DNA from: Escherichia phage CMSTMSU | DNA length: 64,000 nucleotides | Strand: one strand, 5' to 3' | Sequence record: MH494197.1 | Shown here: positions 42,780 to 49,923 of the stretch, piece after piece | Numbering within the stretch: the first letter of the stretch is position 1 | Layout: every line of letters starts with the position of its first letter | Notes under the pieces: model-generated | What the model was told of the DNA's origin: nothing | Database searches by the model: none | What the model saw: only the letters and a program-made list of their open reading frames with translations | Position numbers and translations under genes: made by a program

Positions 42780-43075
42780 ATTTTGTTATCAGGAACAATC
42801 AGTGCTGGTTTTTCTTCGATAGCCTTGATTGCTTCAACATAAGCTTCAACTAGTGCAGGGTTTGCATCGCTGATGCTAATGATGTTGGATTTATAAAAAT
42901 AACGCCTTTTTCAGAACTAATGAATTCTAGGTAATCACGTAGAATGATTTCACCTTGTTCGTCAGTACCTAGCTGTGCTGGGTAGTTAACTACTACTGCT
43001 TCTGGTGCATCATTTTGTAGAATTGCTAGTACTGCCAACGCTGTTGATGTTTAGTAGTTTAACGGTCATAGTCAT
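42780..43075 (-). CDS. Hypothetical protein, frameshifted
   Basis: ORF 42850..43038 with flanking frames. Confidence 0.2.
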
Positions 43076-43093
43076 TTTGTCAAGTCCTTTTGT

Positions 43094-43570
43094 TTATTTT
43101 AGAAAGTATAAGTGTTTTTCTGCATTAACCAGTCTGTGGTCAATGATTTCTTTGATAACGTTCCAGTTACCACCGCCTAAATCGGCTCCAATTTTCGGGA
43201 AGTGTACATGAACAGTGCGTTCAACGTTACATAAGTAATTGAGTTGTTTGAAAACATCATCGATTGCATCATAACTCACATACTTAGAACCGTCATTACC
43301 ATAGTACTTTTGGGTAATGCAGTTTGCGATAAGCAAATCATCACTTATAGAAGAATATGAAATTTGTCCTGTTCTTAGAAATCCCATTTCCTTTTCATAT
43401 GCTTTATAATCATCATATGCCATCGGATAACGATTTCTTAGTTCTTTTGCAAAACCCGAACCCATCTTACCCTGTGCATTACAACCATGAGCGATTATAT
43501 GCAACGCGGTTTGATCATCAGTAACAGTGTTGAACAATTCAAACAAATTACCTAGGTGTTCATGTATCAT
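43094..43570 (-). CDS. Macro-domain protein (ADP-ribose binding/processing family)
   Basis: HIIAHGCNAQGKMGSGFA matches the macro-domain glycine-rich ADP-ribose-binding motif (HGCN..G.MG.G.A). Confidence 0.5.
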   Translation of the reverse strand: MIHEHLGNLFELFNTVTDDQTALHIIAHGCNAQGKMGSGFAKELRNRYPMAYDDYKAYEKEMGFLRTGQISYSSISDDLLIANCITQKYYGNDGSKYVSYDAIDDVFKQLNYLCNVERTVHVHFPKIGADLGGGNWNVIKEIIDHRLVNAEKHLYFLK

Positions 43571-43613
43571 TATATTCTCCGAAAGAAAGGACTCTGTAAT
43601 CAGAGTCCTTAAT

Positions 43614-43877
43614 TTATATTTTATTCTTCTTCACCGAATCGAATTTTTTCAATTCTTTTCGTTGTTTGCGAGCAATGGTACTTTTGTGAAGTCTATTACC
43701 ACGTTTTGTGTCTTTCGTAATGTACCATGAATCTTCTGGTGCATCATAATCACAATAACCATCTTCTGTAATCGTCCCTAAGAAAGCAGACTTTTTAGGA
43801 ATGGATGTTTGAGCTTTAGCAGCGAATTGGCCTTTTGCTAATTGTTCACGAAAACTGAGCATAATAGTATCTCCCAA
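43614..43877 (-). CDS. Hypothetical basic protein (87 aa)
   Basis: Intact ORF. Confidence 0.35.
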   Translation of the reverse strand: MGDTIMLSFREQLAKGQFAAKAQTSIPKKSAFLGTITEDGYCDYDAPEDSWYITKDTKRGNRLHKSTIARKQRKELKKFDSVKKNKI

Positions 43878-43907
43878 ATTGTTACGAAGAACTTGTGTTC
43901 TTCATTA

Positions 43908-44150
43908 TTATTTAGGGTTGCTCGAAACCTCTACTGAAGCGATGAATGCCAAAATATCATCTTTACTGAAAGCTTCAATAATATAAGCAACCGCTTTATC
44001 GTACTGTTCTTTCTTAGTAGTGTATTCTTTCATTTTGTGAATTTTACGTTGTGCTTTAACTTTTGCAGCTTCCATATCAGGCATTTTAAATTCAACACCC
44101 AATGTGTCAGCTAAATGTTTTGCACGAGATGATACTTTATCAATATTCAT
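43908..44150 (-). CDS. Hypothetical protein (80 aa)
   Basis: Intact ORF; its start overlaps the glutaredoxin stop (TAATG). Confidence 0.35.
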   Translation of the reverse strand: MNIDKVSSRAKHLADTLGVEFKMPDMEAAKVKAQRKIHKMKEYTTKKEQYDKAVAYIIEAFSKDDILAFIASVEVSSNPK

Positions 44151-44397
44151 TAATTCCAGCGACCTTCTTTAAGACCTTCAACGAAACCAGTACAGCCACG
44201 GAACGTAAACATCGTTTACGAAAATTTGTGGAACCTGTCGTACTGGCTCACCACATAGTTCAGATAGTTTAGCACCATCAATACCAGCGGTAACATATCG
44301 ATAAACTCCATATCAAATTTGTTATTTTCACATACTGCTTTAGCAGTGTCGCAGAATTTACAACCAGTAGTGCGACCATAAATTTTAACTTTCATTT
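44149..44397 (-). CDS. Glutaredoxin/thioredoxin-like protein (T4 NrdC-like), frameshifted
   Basis: MKVKIYGRTTGCKFCDTAKAV parallels T4 NrdC MFKVYGYDSNIHKCVYCDNAKRL (CxxC); downstream frames give VPQIFVNDVYV and GGCTGFVEGLKEG. Confidence 0.5.
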
Positions 44398-44579
44398 CTT
44401 TTCCTTTATTTCGTTGAAACATCGTAACAGCCTTTATTATACTGTTACACATTCGTTCAGTCAAATACTTTTGACAATCTAGTACATCAATGTACATGAA
44501 CTTATCCAATTCTGGGTGACTTCTACCATATCTGTTTGTGTAAGTACTTTTACACTCCAACTCTTCTGGTATAGGCTTA

Positions 44580-44830
44580 TCTTTGGCTGTATAGAAAAAT
44601 AAAACTAAACGTTTCCCTTTCTATACGATACATCACCAAGAAACAGAAGATCATCTTCATCGATTTCATATCCTGTCTCTTCGTAGCATTCACGTACAGC
44701 AGCCTCTTTAAATGTTTCTGTACCTTCAGTTTTACCTTTAGGTAAGTCCCAGTGATTCTGTCCGTGTTGTATGCCCGATAAGTATCTGACCATCACGATA
44801 AAATATTATACCACAGCTATAACGCATAAT
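44580..44830 (-). CDS. Second NUDIX hydrolase (fragmented)
   Basis: Nudix box GKTEGTETFKEAAVRECYEETGY in ORF 44605..44796. Confidence 0.45.
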
Positions 44831-44902
44831 CTTATCTCTTTATCATCAAGTGATGTTCAGATACTAGTAATTATATCAGAAGATGTTAACTTGTCCCAGC
44901 TT

Positions 44903-46136
44903 TTAGAACATTTGCTTGATTGCTTCAATACGCAATTCAGCAACAAAATCACGAATCTCCGATGTTTGGAGTTCACCATCTTTCACTAACTGCTGAATAT
45001 CAGGTAATTCAACATCAGTATAACGATCATAAACTTTAATAATCAAATCTTCAAGTTCAGAATCAATTTCTTTGTTCAAAATGAAGTTTTCCAGTACTTT
45101 GTAAAGGAAATCTTCACCACCATTGTTTTTGATATTCATATCCAGTAAGATTTGTCCCATTTCAACTGGGGTCTTCTTACGGAAGGTTTTAATATCTTCA
45201 CGGAAACGCTTGATGTAATTATAAACTTCACGTACTTAACTGGAACCTTAATGGAACCGTTAAGTACTGAATCATTATTTACTTCTTCATTTTCAAGAAG
45301 TACTGTCCATAAGAAATATGGTTTATATTCTTCTGTACAATTTACAGAGATAGAATCAATTAATTCCAGACGTTTCTTGGTAACTGGAACTGTAGTAAAT
45401 GCCTTTTCGTAATAACCAAATTGTACCAGAGTTTTGATAAACTTGGAAGGGTTTTCTTCAGAAAGTGCTTTTCGAATTCAACAAAACACGATCTGGAACT
45501 AGATGGTCTAGTTCACCAGTACTAACCATATCTTTACACATTGTCATAGTATCATCATGGATTGTAAAGTCGGAGTAACGCGTAGCGAAACGGGCCAAAC
45601 GTAGAACACGCAATGGATCTTCTTTAAAGTGTTCTGATACATGACGAAGTACTTTGTTCTTGATATCAGCTTTCCCGCCATAAGGGTCGATGTGAATCTG
45701 GAGTACTGGATCATATGCAATACTATTGATTGTGAGATCACGACGATATAGATCTTGTTCTAGTGTCACACCTTTGTATTCACTTCGAAACCACCATATC
45801 CAGTACCAGTTTTACGCTCAGTACGGGCTAATGCGTGTTCATTACCTTCTGGACTTAGATATACAGGAAATCCTTACCTACTTGCTTGTATCCAATACTT
45901 TGCAAGTATTTAATATCGGATTCGGTAGCACCGACAATAACATAATCTTTGTCTTTTGCACGGATGCCCATTAAACGGTCACGAACGTAGCCACCAACCA
46001 AATACTTTTTCATATCATTCCCCATCAACCAATCACGTAGACGTTCCCAGAAGCCTTTTGGCTGATATTCTGGATATTCATATTCATCTGTTCCTTGCTC
46101 GGAAACACCCCAATCTTCTTCTAATACTGTAATCAC
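44903..46136 (-). CDS. cca: tRNA nucleotidyltransferase (CCA-adding enzyme), frameshifted; likely true start MKKYLVGG near 46013, preceded by an in-frame ~40-aa module
   Basis: [29 protein letters not shown] and [13 protein letters not shown] are the head-domain signatures of class II CCA enzymes (E. coli: YLVGGAVRD, RRDLTINALA). Confidence 0.7.
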
Positions 46137-46149
46137 AATGCCTCCAATT

Positions 46150-46569
46150 AAATTAATCTATCACGTAGACGGTCGTAATATTTTGCATGTATATCTAGTA
46201 TACACTGAAATGACGGATAGTCAATACTAAATGTATCATCAATGAACATGTACTGATCAAGTGTTTCAGGACCATTATCATAAACTGGCAATGAACCTTC
46301 TTTTTTAACAGTGTGTTCCACATCAAATCACATGTAGTATCGAAAATTGCGTATGCTAATTCTATCTTACTTTTTCTAAGTGTAATTAATAATTCATCAT
46401 TCTCTACTAACGCGTTTCGTATTTTTACACGTACTGTACCCTGAAATTTATTAGTGGTTAGTACTCTATATTGATTATACGAAATCATGCCTCGTATTTC
46501 AGTACTGATTTCTTGTTCAGAAAAGTACCTTAATGTACTGTGGAAATTTGGTATTTTACGAATGTCCAT
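46150..46569 (-). CDS. Hypothetical protein, tandem paralog (frameshifted C-terminus)
   Basis: C-terminal [27 protein letters not shown] parallels SGSLPIDASYEEYLQYQFIDDTFGFDF of the 46556..46966 gene. Confidence 0.35.
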
Positions 46570-46966
46570 TCAAATTCCTTTCGTATATATGGTATACGTT
46601 CATTATACTATTATATAGTTCAAAGTCAAATCCAAATGTGTCATCAATGAACTGATATTGTAGATACTCTTCATATGAAGCATCAATTGGTAATGAGCCA
46701 GAACGAATATCATCTGATTTAAAATCGTCAATATATCTTAATGTTATTTCTTCATCAACAGTGATATCTATCATCAACGTATCGTCACTGTACCAAAGGT
46801 TATGTATACGGATGTAAAGTTTCTTAGCACGATTAAAACTAGATACATTGGTATTGCGATGGAGTTTATCTAAGTTGAAGTAAAACCGGCTCGTTTTACT
46901 TATGTTTTTCATATGTTCTGCAATCGAATCAATTATATAATCAATGTTGAATGTTCTCATAAACAA
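46556..46966 (-). CDS. Hypothetical protein, tandem paralog (136 aa)
   Basis: Intact ORF. Confidence 0.4.
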   Translation of the reverse strand: MFMRTFNIDYIIDSIAEHMKNISKTSRFYFNLDKLHRNTNVSSFNRAKKLYIRIHNLWYSDDTLMIDITVDEEITLRYIDDFKSDDIRSGSLPIDASYEEYLQYQFIDDTFGFDFELYNSIMNVYHIYERNLNGHS

Positions 46967-46989
46967 ATCTCATAGCGGTTTGTGTTTGG

Positions 46990-47264
46990 ATTGTAGCAAT
47001 AGGTATCATTAATTTTAACACGGTTTAAGTGTTATTGTTGTTCCTACTTCAGTACTGGGTTCTGCATCACAATAAATCATCACACCAACGCCACAGATTA
47101 AAGCTAAGATACAAATAATAGCACATATTATATATTCCATCACTCCCCATCAGCCAATCAAAGAGACGTTCCAAGAAGCCATTAGGCTTGTATTCTGGTT
47201 CTTTGTTCACGTCGGTTTCTTGTTCATAAACACCCAAATCTTCTTCAAGTATAATTGTATTCAT
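46990..47264 (-). CDS. Small protein: conserved N-terminal module plus C-terminal transmembrane segment (frame break between them)
   Basis: MNTIILEEDLGVYEQETDVNKEPEYKPNGFLERLFDWLMG followed, in a neighbouring frame, by MEYIICAIICILALICGVGVMIYCDAEPS. Confidence 0.3.
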
Positions 47265-47647
47265 TATATATTATACTCTATTATACCATCATCACTTTCA
47301 CCAGACAACCACTTAATGTAATTTACTTTGTAGAAATTAATCAATGCATAAGTGCTGTACTCAATCAACAAGTGATCTCTCAAGAATTCGTCTTGAGCAT
47401 ATCCATCTTCATCCAAATCTGTTGGAATATCAGTTTCTTTGTCTTGAATGTGTAAAGTTATTGTGTCTTTTGTTATACAAATTTTTATATGATTACAAAT
47501 AGTAATGATGATTATGCTATATGTTCTATTGAAATATATTGTGAAATCTTCATTAATATTATATCTTCGACTTTCTTCATATTTCTGATATGGGTCGAAA
47601 TGTGATAAATTAACTTTAATTAATGTATTTCTCAACTTACACCTCAA
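47264..47647 (-). CDS. Hypothetical protein (127 aa)
   Basis: Intact ORF. Confidence 0.4.
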   Translation of the reverse strand: MRCKLRNTLIKVNLSHFDPYQKYEESRRYNINEDFTIYFNRTYSIIIITICNHIKICITKDTITLHIQDKETDIPTDLDEDGYAQDEFLRDHLLIEYSTYALINFYKVNYIKWLSGESDDGIIEYNI

Positions 47648-48039
47648 TCATATAAAGTAATTATACATTTTATTGTACAATATAAAAGGTCTTTCACATT
47701 ATCATAAGTAATATCAGATATATCATGAATTAATGATAACTGAAAAATGAAGCTTCGTCTATCTCTACTGGGATTATAACATCATAGTCTTCGTCAATTT
47801 TATGGGTGTAGTATTTTATGTGATCAGCATTCAACACAAGGTTGTATTTTGTATCATCTTCAATTAATCCGACAAATTGAGATTTTTGATTAATAAAAAT
47901 CCAATCCCAACACAACGGTTATCTGGATATGGATAGTACCATCTATTAATAACTAGGTGTTCAGGTAAGTCCATATCATGTGTTGATATTAAAGATTTTA
48001 CAATTCCCATCCGGAATAATTCATAATTAAAACTCCATA

Positions 48040-48070
48040 AGAAAAGGGACAGAATAATCTCTGTCCCTTT
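48040..48070 (-). terminator. Rho-independent terminator
   Basis: AGGGACAG-AATAATCT-CTGTCCCT with flanking A/T runs. Confidence 0.5.
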
Positions 48071-48077
48071 ATTATAT

Positions 48078-48409
48078 CTTACTCTTCGTCTTCAGTCAAG
48101 TCTTCTTGAACTGGATGTTCGGGTGGTTACGGCGATGCAATTTGATGCTTTTGTCTTTACCTAAGACAGTTTCCATTTTTCAAATGAATCACCAATTGCT
48201 TTGTATAAATCTGCATCATCGGCGGTGACAATCTTACCACCTGATGTTAAAGTTACGGAATATTGATTCTTATGCTCTTTCTTCACATGAACACCGATAT
48301 AAAGTACTGAAGAATCACTAAATTTCGTTAGTACATTTGCTTCTGCATGAATCGCGTCATTGATTGCTGGAGTAATATCAACATTACCTTGGATAACTAA
48401 ATCTAGCAT
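48078..48409 (-). CDS. Hypothetical protein
   Basis: ORF 48161..48409 plus a shifted C-terminus. Confidence 0.3.
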
Positions 48410-48423
48410 AATTTACCTACCTT

Positions 48424-49017
48424 TTAGAGTGAGCTTAACAGCAAATCCGCTCTGTTTGTAACTTGGCGATACCACAAGGAATTCATGATTTCTTTCTTGA
48501 ACTTCTTAGGGTTATCCATTTTAACACTTTTCCAAAGTTTGTCAAATGTTGCCAACTTATCAACGCCCATTGTGTATGACATTTCAAACAGGATACGCTG
48601 CTGTTCTTTTGTCAGATTAACTGCATCTTTCTTCTGCATCAATAGTGTAAAGTCCTCGTAAGTCCTTTTCATATCTTGCATTAAAAGTTTGTTGGCCTGT
48701 GCTTTGGTAATCCCGTTTCTGTACTTCATTGCATCAGAATCTTTCTTACCCAAATAATGCCCATAACCAATTGTATAATTACCTTTCATGTCCTTATAGG
48801 GATGAAATTTAGAATTGTGGAAAGGAACTCCAACTTTCCCACCAAGTAATTTACGTTTGTTCTTGGACTGAAATTCAATAGAACCTTCAGCTTCTTTGAT
48901 GTGATCGACAATTTCTGGATCTTTATAATCAAACAGTACAGTCACATCTGGTAACAATACGTTCTTCAAATCCTCTTTGTTGGGATAAAGATACCTGAGA
49001 AGTATGAAGAGTTGCAT
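48424..49017 (-). CDS. T4-type lysozyme (GH24 family), probable endolysin
   Basis: IKEAEGS...KDMKGNYTIGYGHYL and LWYRQVTNRADLL parallel T4 lysozyme ([38 protein letters not shown]). Confidence 0.8.
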   Translation of the reverse strand: MQLFILLRYLYPNKEDLKNVLLPDVTVLFDYKDPEIVDHIKEAEGSIEFQSKNKRKLLGGKVGVPFHNSKFHPYKDMKGNYTIGYGHYLGKKDSDAMKYRNGITKAQANKLLMQDMKRTYEDFTLLMQKKDAVNLTKEQQRILFEMSYTMGVDKLATFDKLWKSVKMDNPKKFKKEIMNSLWYRQVTNRADLLLSSL

Positions 49018-49032
49018 TTAAGTTGATATTCT

Positions 49033-49299
49033 TCAACAAAATGACATAATCTTCAATCTGTACATTTTAGGTTTAAATTTCTGTGCAATAGAATAATAAC
49101 TATCTCCGGTTGAACCGTATAATGTTTCTCGCTGCTTGGAACTGCCTTTGGTACTGATACCTTTAGTAGTTCCTGCTTTTGAATTTACAACTTGTGGTTT
49201 TAAATTATGCACCTGACTTTCGTCTAATGATGATGCACGATCACTTTGAGAAAAACCATAAAATCCAATCGCAGCGAATAGGGCTGATGAAACTAACAC
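49033..49299 (-). CDS. Small protein with N-terminal hydrophobic segment (signal/TM)
   Basis: VLVSSALFAAIGFYGF hydrophobic N-terminus; sits immediately upstream of the lysozyme on the same strand. Confidence 0.3.
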   Translation of the reverse strand: MLVSSALFAAIGFYGFSQSDRASSLDESQVHNLKPQVVNSKAGTTKGISTKGSSKQRETLYGSTGDSYYSIAQKFKPKMYRLKIMSFC

Positions 49300-49923
49300 G
49301 CCTATGGCAATTTTAGTTTTCAGTGCTTTTTCGCTTTTTCAAAACGCCTCCTTTGTTGGTTGTTAACAATGAGCAATCACAAAGAGGGCAAAGAGGCCAT
49401 TTGCAAAAGCCTCATTGGACTTTCTACAGTACTCATTTGTTCTTTGGAACATTTAAGTAGTATAGCATACTTTTTAGTTATATCAAGACCTATTTACCAA
49501 ATAACCACATTAATCGTAGTATGTTCTACCAATGGTGATGTGATATTTGAAATATTTAGATGCCAAACCCAGTTCATTACGAATATGTGCAATGAAATCA
49601 TCTTCAAACTCTATGATAAAGAATGACCGGTTTCTTATTGTCTTTTACTTCTTCGATGAAAGGATCGAACTTAATCTTAACTTTCATACCATCGTACTTT
49701 TCCAGTACTCTGGATTTGGTGGCACTTCACCACGAACGATACTGACATGTGCTCCCCATTGTGGGTCTTTAATATCAATATGTAAGTCAGTTCTGATGAA
49801 GTACTGGTAGTATCGAACCAACTGTAATGGAAGTTGCAGTACTAACCAGAAGTCCTTCTTCTTTTCATAGTGCCACGATCTGGATCATACACCAGAGTTC
49901 CTTCCATTTCAATCATATTTTAC

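What the first reader, a model, noticed from the sequence alone, without database searches (positions are those of the whole stretch)
46020..47264. A ~38-aa coding module duplicated at the 5' ends of two unrelated genes, including the CCA enzyme
[39 protein letters not shown] (46020-46136, in frame with and immediately upstream of the CCA start MKKYLVGG) and MNTIILEEDLGVYEQETDVNKEPEYKPNGFLERLFDWLMG (47148-47264, followed by a transmembrane peptide) share roughly 70% nucleotide identity. It could be a portable N-terminal tag or interaction domain, an upstream ORF family, or the footprint of a small mobile cassette.
Basis: seen in the sequence. Interest (0 to 1): 0.5.

Follow-up and report, generated by a model that had tools for sequence, protein, structure and literature searches.

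The report
Duplicated small phage gene, not a tag
The repeated ~40-codon stretch is real, but it is a separate small phage gene of unknown function present twice; its apparent fusion to the CCA enzyme comes from a missing base in an error-prone nanopore assembly.

Summary
Two ~120-nt stretches on the minus strand (46015-46136 and 47140-47264) encode peptides 66% identical (tblastn E 6e-13).

The interpretation mostly fails. The window is an Asteriusvirus-type jumbo coliphage, 99.4% identical to fEgEco12 and probably the unpolished MinION assembly of phage CMSTMSU. It is riddled with homopolymer and CCWGG deletions. All 12 related loci examined have ATGGGGGAR followed by a stop codon. Only the window has G4, and that erases the stop of both copies and fuses copy A to CCA.

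The module is therefore a stand-alone 38-49 aa gene (phrog_34272, unknown function). It is under purifying selection (dN/dS 0.03-0.15). It keeps its place in a lysozyme–HPF–…–CCA–Nudix–glutaredoxin block of related jumbo phages, at a varying distance from CCA, and was not detected within 4 kb upstream of CCA in RaK2 or CBB.

Copy B is not a local duplication. It lies in a ~550-bp tract (g278 + module + the first ~50 nt of the membrane-peptide gene) imported by recombination from a JNE01-like relative (dS 0.2 against a 1.5 background). Copy B is decaying: an invariant Trp is lost, dN/dS is 0.42, and phage ph0011 carries it as a pseudogene.

Function remains unknown. The peptide is predicted to be a disordered acidic chain with a C-terminal helix. 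Ordinary; low interest.

The parts
46015..46136 (-). Module copy A: a stand-alone 40-codon gene (GTG start at 46136; true stop TGA at 46017-46015 once the missing G is restored). It corresponds to fEgEco12 g283 and 121Q gp538, and belongs to phrog_34272.
   Evidence: dN/dS 0.03-0.15 among orthologs.
46020..46023 (.). C4 run (G4 on the coding strand) that is C5 in all relatives. This under-call removes copy A's stop codon from the frame and creates the apparent fusion to CCA.
44903..46013 (-). CCA tRNA nucleotidyltransferase gene. Its ATG (46013-46011) lies 1 nt after copy A's stop. In the window it is broken by five further homopolymer deletions (45221, 45468, 45482, 45772, 45865).
47140..47264 (-). 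Module copy B: a stand-alone 41-codon gene (ATG at 47264, overlapping the g278 stop as TAATG; true stop TGA at 47142-47140, overlapping the next ATG as TGATG). It corresponds to fEgEco12 g279. It is a degenerating extra copy: the invariant Trp9 is replaced by Leu.
47145..47148 (.). C4 run that is C5 in relatives. This under-call extends copy B into a spurious 65-aa ORF (47067-47264, identical to protein P0005).
46957..47140 (-). 61-aa membrane-peptide gene (phrog_4189, fEgEco12 g280). In the window it is frameshifted by a 2-nt deletion at a CCAGG site (47021). Its first ~50 nt belong to the imported tract.
47264..47635 (-). g278, a 123-aa hypothetical gene present only in locus types II and III. 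It was imported together with copy B.
47088..47636 (-). Recombination tract of about 550 bp (g278 + copy B + 5' end of the membrane-peptide gene). It is about 92% identical to JNE01-type phages and sits in a backbone that is otherwise 90-100% PBECO4-like. Breakpoints are resolved to about 50 nt.
   Evidence: sliding identity; dS 0.20 against a 1.5 background.
46148..46960 (-). g282 (46148-46569) and g281 (46556-46960), paralogs in phrog_20693. They separate the membrane-peptide gene from copy A. Both are frameshifted in the window.

Best explanation
The 'module' is a complete small gene, not a piece of larger genes. It encodes a 38-49 aa acidic protein. The N-terminal core (M-I[10 protein letters not shown]/T) is nearly invariant, the middle is acidic and predicted disordered, and the last ~10 residues form a short amphipathic Trp/Leu-rich helix.

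The gene belongs to one polycistronic block of Asteriusvirus-type and related jumbo phages: lysozyme, ribosome hibernation factor (HPF), a variable array of paralogous genes of roughly 120-160 aa, this small gene, CCA-adding enzyme, Nudix hydrolase, glutaredoxin. Its last codons (AUG-GGG-GAR) double as the ribosome-binding site of whatever cistron follows. Its stop codon abuts or overlaps that cistron's AUG, so the two are probably translationally coupled.

The window carries two copies because a relative of the JNE01 type keeps the same gene on the other side of the 61-aa membrane-peptide gene. That relative donated a ~550-bp tract (g278 + its copy of the small gene + the first ~50 nt of the membrane-peptide gene) by homologous recombination into a PBECO4-like backbone. 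The extra copy (B) is redundant and decaying.

The apparent fusion of copy A to the CCA enzyme comes from one missing G in a G5 run, one of hundreds of homopolymer under-calls in this unpolished nanopore assembly.

Shown: separate ORFs, purifying selection, conserved gene neighbourhood, recombinant origin, decay of copy B, the sequencing artefact.
Inferred: translational coupling, and that the product acts in trans as a small partner-binding protein of the phage's tRNA/translation module. Its partner and biochemical function are unknown.
For: Identity and artefact: 99.4% identity to fEgEco12, where the copies are annotated as g283 (123 nt) and g279 (126 nt). The window differs by 5->4 homopolymer deletions at 46019/20 and 47144/5. 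All 12 related loci have G5 plus a stop; only the window has G4. Window-wide, 44%, 86% and 93% of 5-, 6- and 7-mers are shortened, with further deletions at CCWGG. The window's 65-aa ORF is identical to P0005, a protein of phage CMSTMSU on a 386,442-bp contig. That genome was sequenced by MinION, base-called with Albacore and assembled with Canu; no polishing step is described (PMC6256653).

Real gene: matches to phrog_34272 at E 3e-31 and 3.5e-16. dN/dS is 0.03-0.15 among orthologs, with dS up to 1.6. There are 27 protein clusters of 38-49 aa, all stand-alone apart from the window's own 65-aa frameshifted ORF.

Conserved neighbourhood: XaC1, Hallingskeid, EJP2 and five metagenomic loci (from three protein look-ups) show 0-4 variable genes between the small gene and CCA.

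Recombinant origin: g278 and copy B against JNE01 have dS 0.20-0.21. CCA across the same lineages has dS 1.5-1.8, and copy A against the JNE01 module has dS 1.5. The sliding-identity mosaic has breakpoints at the g277/g278 boundary and ~50 nt into the membrane-peptide gene.

Decay of copy B: dN/dS 0.42. Trp9, invariant in the 27-sequence family alignment, is Leu. The profile score is 40.9 bits against 70-79 for the Asteriusvirus orthologs. Copy B in ph0011 has two in-frame stops.

Structure: AF2 mean pLDDT 62, residues 1-28 unstructured, helix 29-38.
Against: No expression, proteomic or genetic data exist for any member; the papers checked contain none. The function is therefore pure inference. 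I did not see the raw reads, so G5 in this particular phage is inferred from relatives and from the window-wide error pattern. Synonymous sites between copy A and the JNE01 module are near saturation, so their orthology (as opposed to an old paralogy) is consistent with the data but not proven. How the small gene and the membrane-peptide gene came to lie in opposite order in the two lineages is unexplained.
Confidence: 0.85

Rival explanations
1. The small ORF is only a cis-acting leader (upstream ORF). Its translation delivers ribosomes to the downstream start, and the peptide itself has no function.
For: The stop codon abuts or overlaps the next AUG in every locus (TGA-T-ATG, TGATG, TAA-AG-ATG, TAATG), and the last codons form a GGGGGA/GGGAG Shine-Dalgarno sequence. 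The copy A-CCA junction is less structured than shuffled controls (z = +1.7).
Against: The amino-acid sequence is strongly conserved (dN/dS 0.03-0.15). The most conserved part is the N-terminal EEDWGV core, far from the junction. The downstream gene differs between phages: CCA, the membrane peptide, a Zn-finger/endonuclease-like gene in A4, or members of the variable paralog array. RaK2 and CBB have the CCA ortholog, and no such ORF was detected within 4 kb upstream of it.
Confidence: 0.1
2. The two copies arose by duplication within the genome. The two-copy (type II) arrangement is ancestral, and the other locus types lost one copy each.
For: Type I lacks exactly [g278 + copy B] and type III lacks exactly [g281-g282-copy A], with gene-precise boundaries. 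Phages with two copies are scattered across the CCA identity matrix.
Against: Copy B and g278 are far closer to JNE01 (dS 0.2) than the flanking backbone is (dS 1.5-1.8). The membrane-peptide gene is itself a mosaic with a breakpoint ~50 nt in. The divergence of copy A from the JNE01 module equals the lineage divergence measured on CCA, as expected for orthologs.
Confidence: 0.08
3. The G-run is a programmed slippage site (ribosomal frameshift or transcriptional slippage) that makes some module-CCA fusion protein, and the window's G4 hints at this.
For: A G5 run sits just before the stop in both copies and in most Asteriusvirus orthologs. Losing one G puts copy A in frame with CCA.
Against: The run is absent in A4 (GGGAGAA), XaC1 (GGGAG) and Hallingskeid. 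Copy B would need a shift in the opposite direction to reach the membrane peptide. No RNA structure follows the site. The G-run is fully explained by the Met-Gly-Glu codons plus the Shine-Dalgarno sequence. The window under-% of all 5-mers.
Confidence: 0.03
4. The fusion is genuine in this particular phage: a natural 1-bp deletion made a CCA enzyme with a 41-aa N-terminal extension.
For: The window as given reads through.
Against: The same CCA gene carries five more frameshifts in the window, and the neighbouring genes g281, g282 and the membrane-peptide gene are also broken, all at homopolymers or CCWGG sites. The probable source genome is an unpolished MinION assembly that NCBI marks UNVERIFIED.
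Confidence: 0.02

Closest known systems
PHROG family phrog_34272 (for example 121Q gp538 YP_009102125.1, fEgEco12 g283 and g279, PBECO4 AGC34714.1), all annotated 'hypothetical protein'
   Same: Both window copies match the 40-position profile end to end (E 3e-31 and 3.5e-16). Length, position and stand-alone status are the same as in the annotated relatives.
   Different: Nothing in kind. The window's copies merely appear longer because of a lost stop codon. The family has no assigned function, no Pfam or PADLOC model and no solved structure.
Gene-by-gene shuffling in hyperplastic regions of T4-type and other large myoviruses (own knowledge: Comeau, Arbiol, Krisch and colleagues; not checked in the paper library)
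   Same: Insertions and deletions fall precisely at gene boundaries. Small ORFs of unknown function come and go between conserved genes, and relatives exchange short tracts.
   Different: No promoter/stem-loop repeats flank the exchanged units here. Promoter-like sites are no more frequent than in shuffled sequence (35 found against 29.5 expected). The exchange used ordinary flanking homology (g277 and the membrane-peptide gene).
Translationally coupled cistrons with overlapping stop and start codons (ATGA/TGATG/TAATG), as common in phage operons (textbook knowledge)
   Same: The junctions are TAATG (g278 to copy B), TGATG (copy B to membrane peptide) and TGA-N-ATG (copy A to CCA). The Shine-Dalgarno sequence lies inside the upstream coding sequence.
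   Different: Coupling here is inferred from sequence only.
Small acidic phage proteins that bind host targets (for example T7 Ocr, T4 Arn) — a resemblance in composition only, recalled from memory
   Same: Very acidic, small, and encoded among other small genes of unknown function.
   Different: No sequence or predicted-fold similarity. The model is mostly disordered and there is no hit in PDB sequences. Not a member.

Membership tests
phrog_34272 small-protein family | Significant full-length match to the family profile | tested here: met
   Copy A: E 3.2e-31, positions 1-40 of 40. Copy B: E 3.5e-16, positions 4-40 of 40.
phrog_34272 small-protein family | Stand-alone ORF of about 40 codons with its own start and stop | tested here: met
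   Relatives have 123-141-nt ORFs ending in TGA or TAA. In the window the stop is out of frame only because of a G5->G4 under-call.
N-terminal domain or tag of the CCA-adding enzyme | Continuous reading frame with CCA in accurate sequences | tested here: not met
   A stop codon separates them in every related locus examined (12 in the first comparison, plus XaC1, Hallingskeid, EJP2 and the metagenomic loci).
N-terminal domain or tag of the CCA-adding enzyme | Module found as part of larger proteins elsewhere | tested here: not met
   The 27 family clusters are 38-49 aa. The only longer entry is the window's own 65-aa frameshifted ORF. Two 700-aa hits are repeat-protein false positives.
Cis-regulatory upstream ORF / leader peptide of one gene | Fixed linkage to the regulated downstream gene | tested here: not met
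   The downstream gene is CCA, the membrane peptide, a Zn-finger/endonuclease-like gene (A4), or 1-4 variable paralogs, depending on the phage.
Cis-regulatory upstream ORF / leader peptide of one gene | Effect of its translation on downstream expression | not testable with these tools
   Needs reporter fusions or ribosome profiling.
Small mobile cassette | Defined ends, flanking repeats or its own mobility gene | tested here: not met
   Similarity between the copies runs only from the Shine-Dalgarno sequence to the stop codon. Copy B lies inside a tract whose ends are ordinary homologous flanks. The neighbouring gene g278 has no PHROG match and only a sub-threshold Pfam hit.
Programmed frameshift or slippage site | Slippery run conserved across the family and giving a consistent fusion product | tested here: not met
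   The G5 run is absent in A4, XaC1 and Hallingskeid. The two copies would need shifts in opposite directions. No downstream structure is present.

The most novel reading that the evidence does not exclude
The conserved 4-5 kDa acidic protein, with its near-invariant LEEDWGV core, could be a dedicated trans-acting partner of the jumbo-phage tRNA/translation maintenance module (HPF, CCA-adding enzyme, Nudix, glutaredoxin, RNA ligase). It might regulate the CCA enzyme, or bind and neutralise a host tRNA-targeting or ribosome-targeting factor. The imported second copy could be evolving a new specificity rather than decaying.
Probability: 0.1. Interest if true: 0.5.

Novelty: already known. Interest (0 to 1): 0.12.

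Why it matters
It matters mainly as a caution. One under-called G in an unpolished nanopore genome turned a separate 40-codon gene into an apparent N-terminal extension of the CCA enzyme. In the public record of the probable source phage, the frameshifted 65-aa copy-B ORF (P0005) already carries the name 'tRNA nucleotidyltransferase'.

Biologically, the case is a clean small example of how a phage gets two copies of a gene without duplicating it. Two relatives hold the gene on opposite sides of a shared neighbour, and one recombination event puts both copies in one genome. The surplus copy then decays.

The small protein itself is a conserved, uncharacterised member of a jumbo-phage tRNA/translation gene block. 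It could be worth a knockout, but nothing here singles it out as unusual.

Tried and rejected
- Paralogy of the upstream genes. I tested whether the copies belong to a larger duplication [g282 + A] versus [g278 + B]. BLASTP of g278 against g282 gives E 0.83, so no direct similarity. An iterated profile later placed both in one very divergent family, but the copy A/copy B similarity itself stops at the Shine-Dalgarno sequence.
- Origin from a neighbouring gene. I tested whether the module derives from the C-terminal ~35 residues of g282-type proteins (IDDTFSI...[10 protein letters not shown] resembles LEEDWGV...[10 protein letters not shown] by eye). hhalign of the module profile against the paralog-family profile gives probability 0.2%. 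The module HMM finds no such ORF at E <= 10. Rejected.
- More copies. There are none in the window and none beyond two per genome in 35 phage records.
- Known families. No Pfam, PADLOC or PDB-sequence match, and no Rfam family in 43000-49500 on either strand.
- RNA structure at the two junctions: none beyond shuffled controls.
- Promoters. Sigma-70-like sites are near both copies (47308-47280 and 46224-46197), but the region has no excess over shuffles (35 against 29.5 ± 4.8), so they are not used as evidence.
- Fold search. Not run, because the model is mostly disordered (pLDDT 62) and matches would be meaningless.
- False positives. Two 700-aa hits in the exhaustive HMM search (P0006, P0008) are tandem-repeat proteins matched through many weak stretches.
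- Source contig. An exact look-up of the window's 65-aa ORF in the contig index found nothing.
- Literature. Papers on Asteriusvirus phages hold no expression or proteomic data for this gene.
Full report
**1. What the window is**

The region 44900-47700 is 99.4% identical to Escherichia phage fEgEco12. It is 80-96% identical to other jumbo coliphages of the Asteriusvirus type, such as PBECO4 and 121Q. All genes here lie on the minus strand.

The window's 65-aa ORF at 47067-47264 is letter-for-letter protein P0005. NCBI holds P0005 as a product of 'UNVERIFIED_ORG ... Escherichia phage CMSTMSU' on a 386,442-bp contig. That genome was sequenced on a MinION R9.4 flow cell, base-called with Albacore 2.1.3 and assembled with Canu. 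No polishing step is described (PMC6256653). An exact look-up of P0005 in the contig index found nothing, so the identification rests on this protein match and the contig size.

**2. Checking the observation**

The two stretches exist. The peptides are 66% identical and the DNA is 74% identical on the codon alignment. A tblastn search of either peptide against the window finds the other at E 6e-13 and nothing else below E 0.3.

As written, the window reads copy A straight into MKKYLVGG of the CCA gene. Copy B, as written, runs on into a 65-aa ORF that is not in frame with the membrane peptide.

**3. The fusion is an artefact**

Aligning 2.8 kb of the window to fEgEco12 gives 13 deletion sites (15 bases). 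Eleven are homopolymers shortened by one base, and two are 2-nt losses at CCAGG sites. Two of the homopolymer sites are the C5 runs at 46019/20 and 47144/5, which lie just before the end of each module copy.

Over about 50 kb, the window has shortened 44% of the 5-nt runs, 86% of the 6-nt runs and 93% of the 7-nt runs relative to fEgEco12. It also has many deletions at CCWGG, the Dcm methylation motif. This is the classic error pattern of early nanopore base-calling. The CCA gene alone carries five further frameshifts.

In every one of the 12 related loci examined first, the sequence is ATGGGGGAR followed by TGA or TAA. Only the window has G4. With the G restored:
- Copy A ends ...DWLMGE-stop, and the CCA ATG begins one base later.
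- Copy B ends ...DWLMGE-stop as TGATG, which overlaps the ATG of the 61-aa membrane-peptide gene.

Relatives annotate both as separate hypothetical proteins of 40-41 aa.

**4. It is a real gene**

Both copies match phrog_34272, a 40-position family of unknown function.

Among orthologs, synonymous divergence reaches 0.3-1.6 while dN/dS stays at 0.03-0.15. That is about as constrained as the neighbouring CCA gene, whose dN/dS is 0.05-0.11.

A word-indexed search of 5.8 billion proteins and an exhaustive HMM search of 1.84 billion representatives together find 27 clusters. All are 38-49 aa, apart from the window's own frameshifted ORF. Two long hits are repeat proteins and are spurious.

The alignment shows a near-invariant start M-I-x-x-L-E-E-D-W-G-V. 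E6, E7 and W9 are invariant. An acidic middle follows, then a C-terminal W/Y-D/E-K/R-L-x-D/E-W/L helix motif. AlphaFold2 with this alignment gives a low-confidence model (mean pLDDT 62). Residues 1-28 have no regular structure, and residues 29-38 form a helix with pLDDT near 80. There is no Pfam, PADLOC or PDB-sequence match.

**5. Genomic setting across relatives**

The gene always sits in the same block: (RNA ligase) ... lysozyme, HPF, variable genes, the small gene, variable genes, CCA, Nudix, glutaredoxin. The table shows how many genes separate it from CCA.

| Phage or locus | Genes between the small gene and CCA |
|---|---|
| Most Asteriusvirus genomes, Xanthomonas phage XaC1, one metagenomic lineage (L020) | 0 (directly upstream) |
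| Metagenomic lineage L018/L019 | 1 |
| Phage A4 | 1, a Zn-finger/endonuclease-like gene |
| JNE01 and Turkey5 | 1, the membrane-peptide gene |
| Erwinia phage Hallingskeid and its metagenomic relatives | 3 |
| EJP2 | 4 |

Klebsiella phage RaK2 and Pectobacterium phage CBB have the orthologous CCA-Nudix-glutaredoxin block, but no such gene was detected within 4 kb upstream. The association with CCA is therefore one of neighbourhood, not of obligatory pairing. CCA homologs occur in 373 phage records, against roughly 40 records that hold the small gene.

**6. Why there are two copies**

Three locus types exist.

| Type | Phages | Gene order |
|---|---|---|
| I | 121Q, PBECO4 and most others | g277 – TM – g281 – g282 – module – CCA |
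| III | JNE01, Turkey5 | g277 – g278 – module – TM – CCA |
| II | the window, fEgEco12, ph0011 and a few others | g277 – g278 – moduleB – TM – g281 – g282 – moduleA – CCA |

(TM is the 61-aa membrane-peptide gene. Sources.)

The differences between types are gene-precise. Four results point to an imported tract rather than a local duplication:
- Copy B is 90.5% identical in DNA to the type III module but only 74% identical to copy A.
- Synonymous divergence between type II and JNE01 is 0.20 for g278 and 0.21 for copy B. It is 1.5-1.8 for CCA across the same lineages.
- Copy A against the JNE01 module gives dS 1.5, the same as the lineage divergence on CCA. Those two therefore behave as orthologs.
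- A 50-nt sliding comparison shows that the type II locus is 84-98% PBECO4-like through g277. It then becomes 86-100% JNE01-like from the start of g278 to about 50 nt into the membrane-peptide gene, and 90-100% PBECO4-like again after that.

The simplest reading is one double crossover, with the left junction at the g277/g278 boundary and the right one inside the membrane-peptide gene. It moved g278 and the JNE01-type copy of the small gene into a type I backbone. Because the two lineages keep the small gene on opposite sides of the membrane-peptide gene, the recombinant holds both.

**7. The second copy is decaying**

Against the JNE01 module, copy B has 8 non-synonymous and 4 synonymous changes (dN/dS 0.42). 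Trp9, invariant across the family, has become Leu. Copy B scores 40.9 bits against the family profile, against 70-79 for the Asteriusvirus orthologs. In ph0011, copy B carries two in-frame stop codons and is not annotated.

**8. How it probably works**

Shown: the gene is a separate cistron whose last three codons, AUG-GGG-GAR, form the Shine-Dalgarno sequence of the next gene, and whose stop abuts or overlaps the next AUG.

Inferred: ribosomes finishing the small ORF reinitiate on the next cistron. The copy A-CCA junction is, if anything, less structured than shuffled sequence, which fits an open initiation region.

Also inferred: the peptide acts in trans. Its sequence is constrained most strongly at the N-terminus, far from the junction, and its downstream neighbour varies. 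A short, acidic, mostly disordered chain with one conserved motif and one amphipathic helix suggests binding to a partner protein. Its neighbours suggest a role around tRNA or ribosome maintenance. No data identify the partner.

**9. Alternatives considered**

A programmed shift at the G-run fails for four reasons. The run is missing in A4, XaC1 and Hallingskeid. The two copies would need opposite shifts. No stimulatory structure is present. The run is explained by its codons plus the Shine-Dalgarno sequence.

A mobile cassette is not supported. I saw no repeats or element ends flanking either copy, and the similarity stops at the Shine-Dalgarno sequence and the stop codon.

An origin from the C-terminus of the neighbouring paralog family looked plausible by eye but has no profile support: hhalign probability is 0.2%.

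**10. Verdict**

The repeat is real. The striking part, a shared coding module fused to the CCA enzyme, is a sequencing artefact. What remains is a catalogued small phage gene of unknown function, present twice because of recombination between relatives, with the second copy degenerating. This is ordinary phage genome dynamics. It is already visible in the annotation of related genomes and is of low interest beyond its cautionary value.

Noticed in passing
whole window (compared over about 13900-63450): The window has systematic one-base shortening of homopolymers (44% of 5-mers, 86% of 6-mers, 93% of 7-mers) and deletions at CCWGG (Dcm) sites relative to fEgEco12. Many genes in the window are therefore artificially frameshifted, and ORF-based readings anywhere in it need this correction.
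   Followed up: yes
window 46148-48027, and the equivalent positions in loci L003-L023: The variable genes of roughly 120-160 aa between HPF and CCA (g277, g278, g281, g282 and their counterparts in Erwinia, Xanthomonas and Klebsiella phages and metagenomic relatives) form one large, very divergent tandem paralog family. They share a C-terminal motif resembling T-E-E-E-F-F-Q-x-S-L-L-x-D. An iterated HMM collects 58 members in 20 loci. The function is unknown and copy number varies from 1 to 6 per locus.
   Followed up: partly
L008 2627-3694 (Escherichia phage A4, gene A4_535): A 355-aa gene is inserted exactly between the small gene and CCA. It has a treble-clef zinc finger (DUF4379, E 2e-7) and a weak DUF2726 (endonuclease-like) C-terminal match. 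It looks like a free-standing homing-endonuclease-type insertion.
   Followed up: partly
L005 3001-3126 (Escherichia phage ph0011): Copy B of the small gene is a pseudogene with two in-frame stops (TAG at the Trp9 position, TAA four codons later). The record does not annotate it.
   Followed up: yes
L010 2382-2483 (Salmonella phage SD-15_S21): Only the last 33 codons of g282 survive ([14 protein letters not shown]...RLRDRLI), annotated as a 33-aa protein. g281 and most of g282 are deleted, which is another gene-scale indel in this hotspot.
   Followed up: no
window 48043-48099: An 11-bp-stem hairpin with T-rich tails on both strands lies between the HPF gene and g277. UE-S1 annotates a terminator at the equivalent position. 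A near-consensus sigma-70-like site on the minus strand (TTGACT-17-TATAAT, 48099-48071) sits immediately before it. This may be a terminator and promoter boundary of the operon that contains both module copies.
   Followed up: no
protein P0005 (window 47067-47264, minus strand): In the public record of phage CMSTMSU, this 65-aa frameshifted copy-B ORF is named 'tRNA nucleotidyltransferase'. The name may have spread by similarity from the artefactual module-CCA fusion ORF; I did not check this. It looks like an annotation error.
   Followed up: partly
proteins P0006 and P0008: Two ~720-aa tandem-repeat proteins scored E 1e-14 and 6e-7 against the 40-position profile by summing 6-9 weak stretches. 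They are false positives typical of short profiles matched against repeat proteins.
   Followed up: yes
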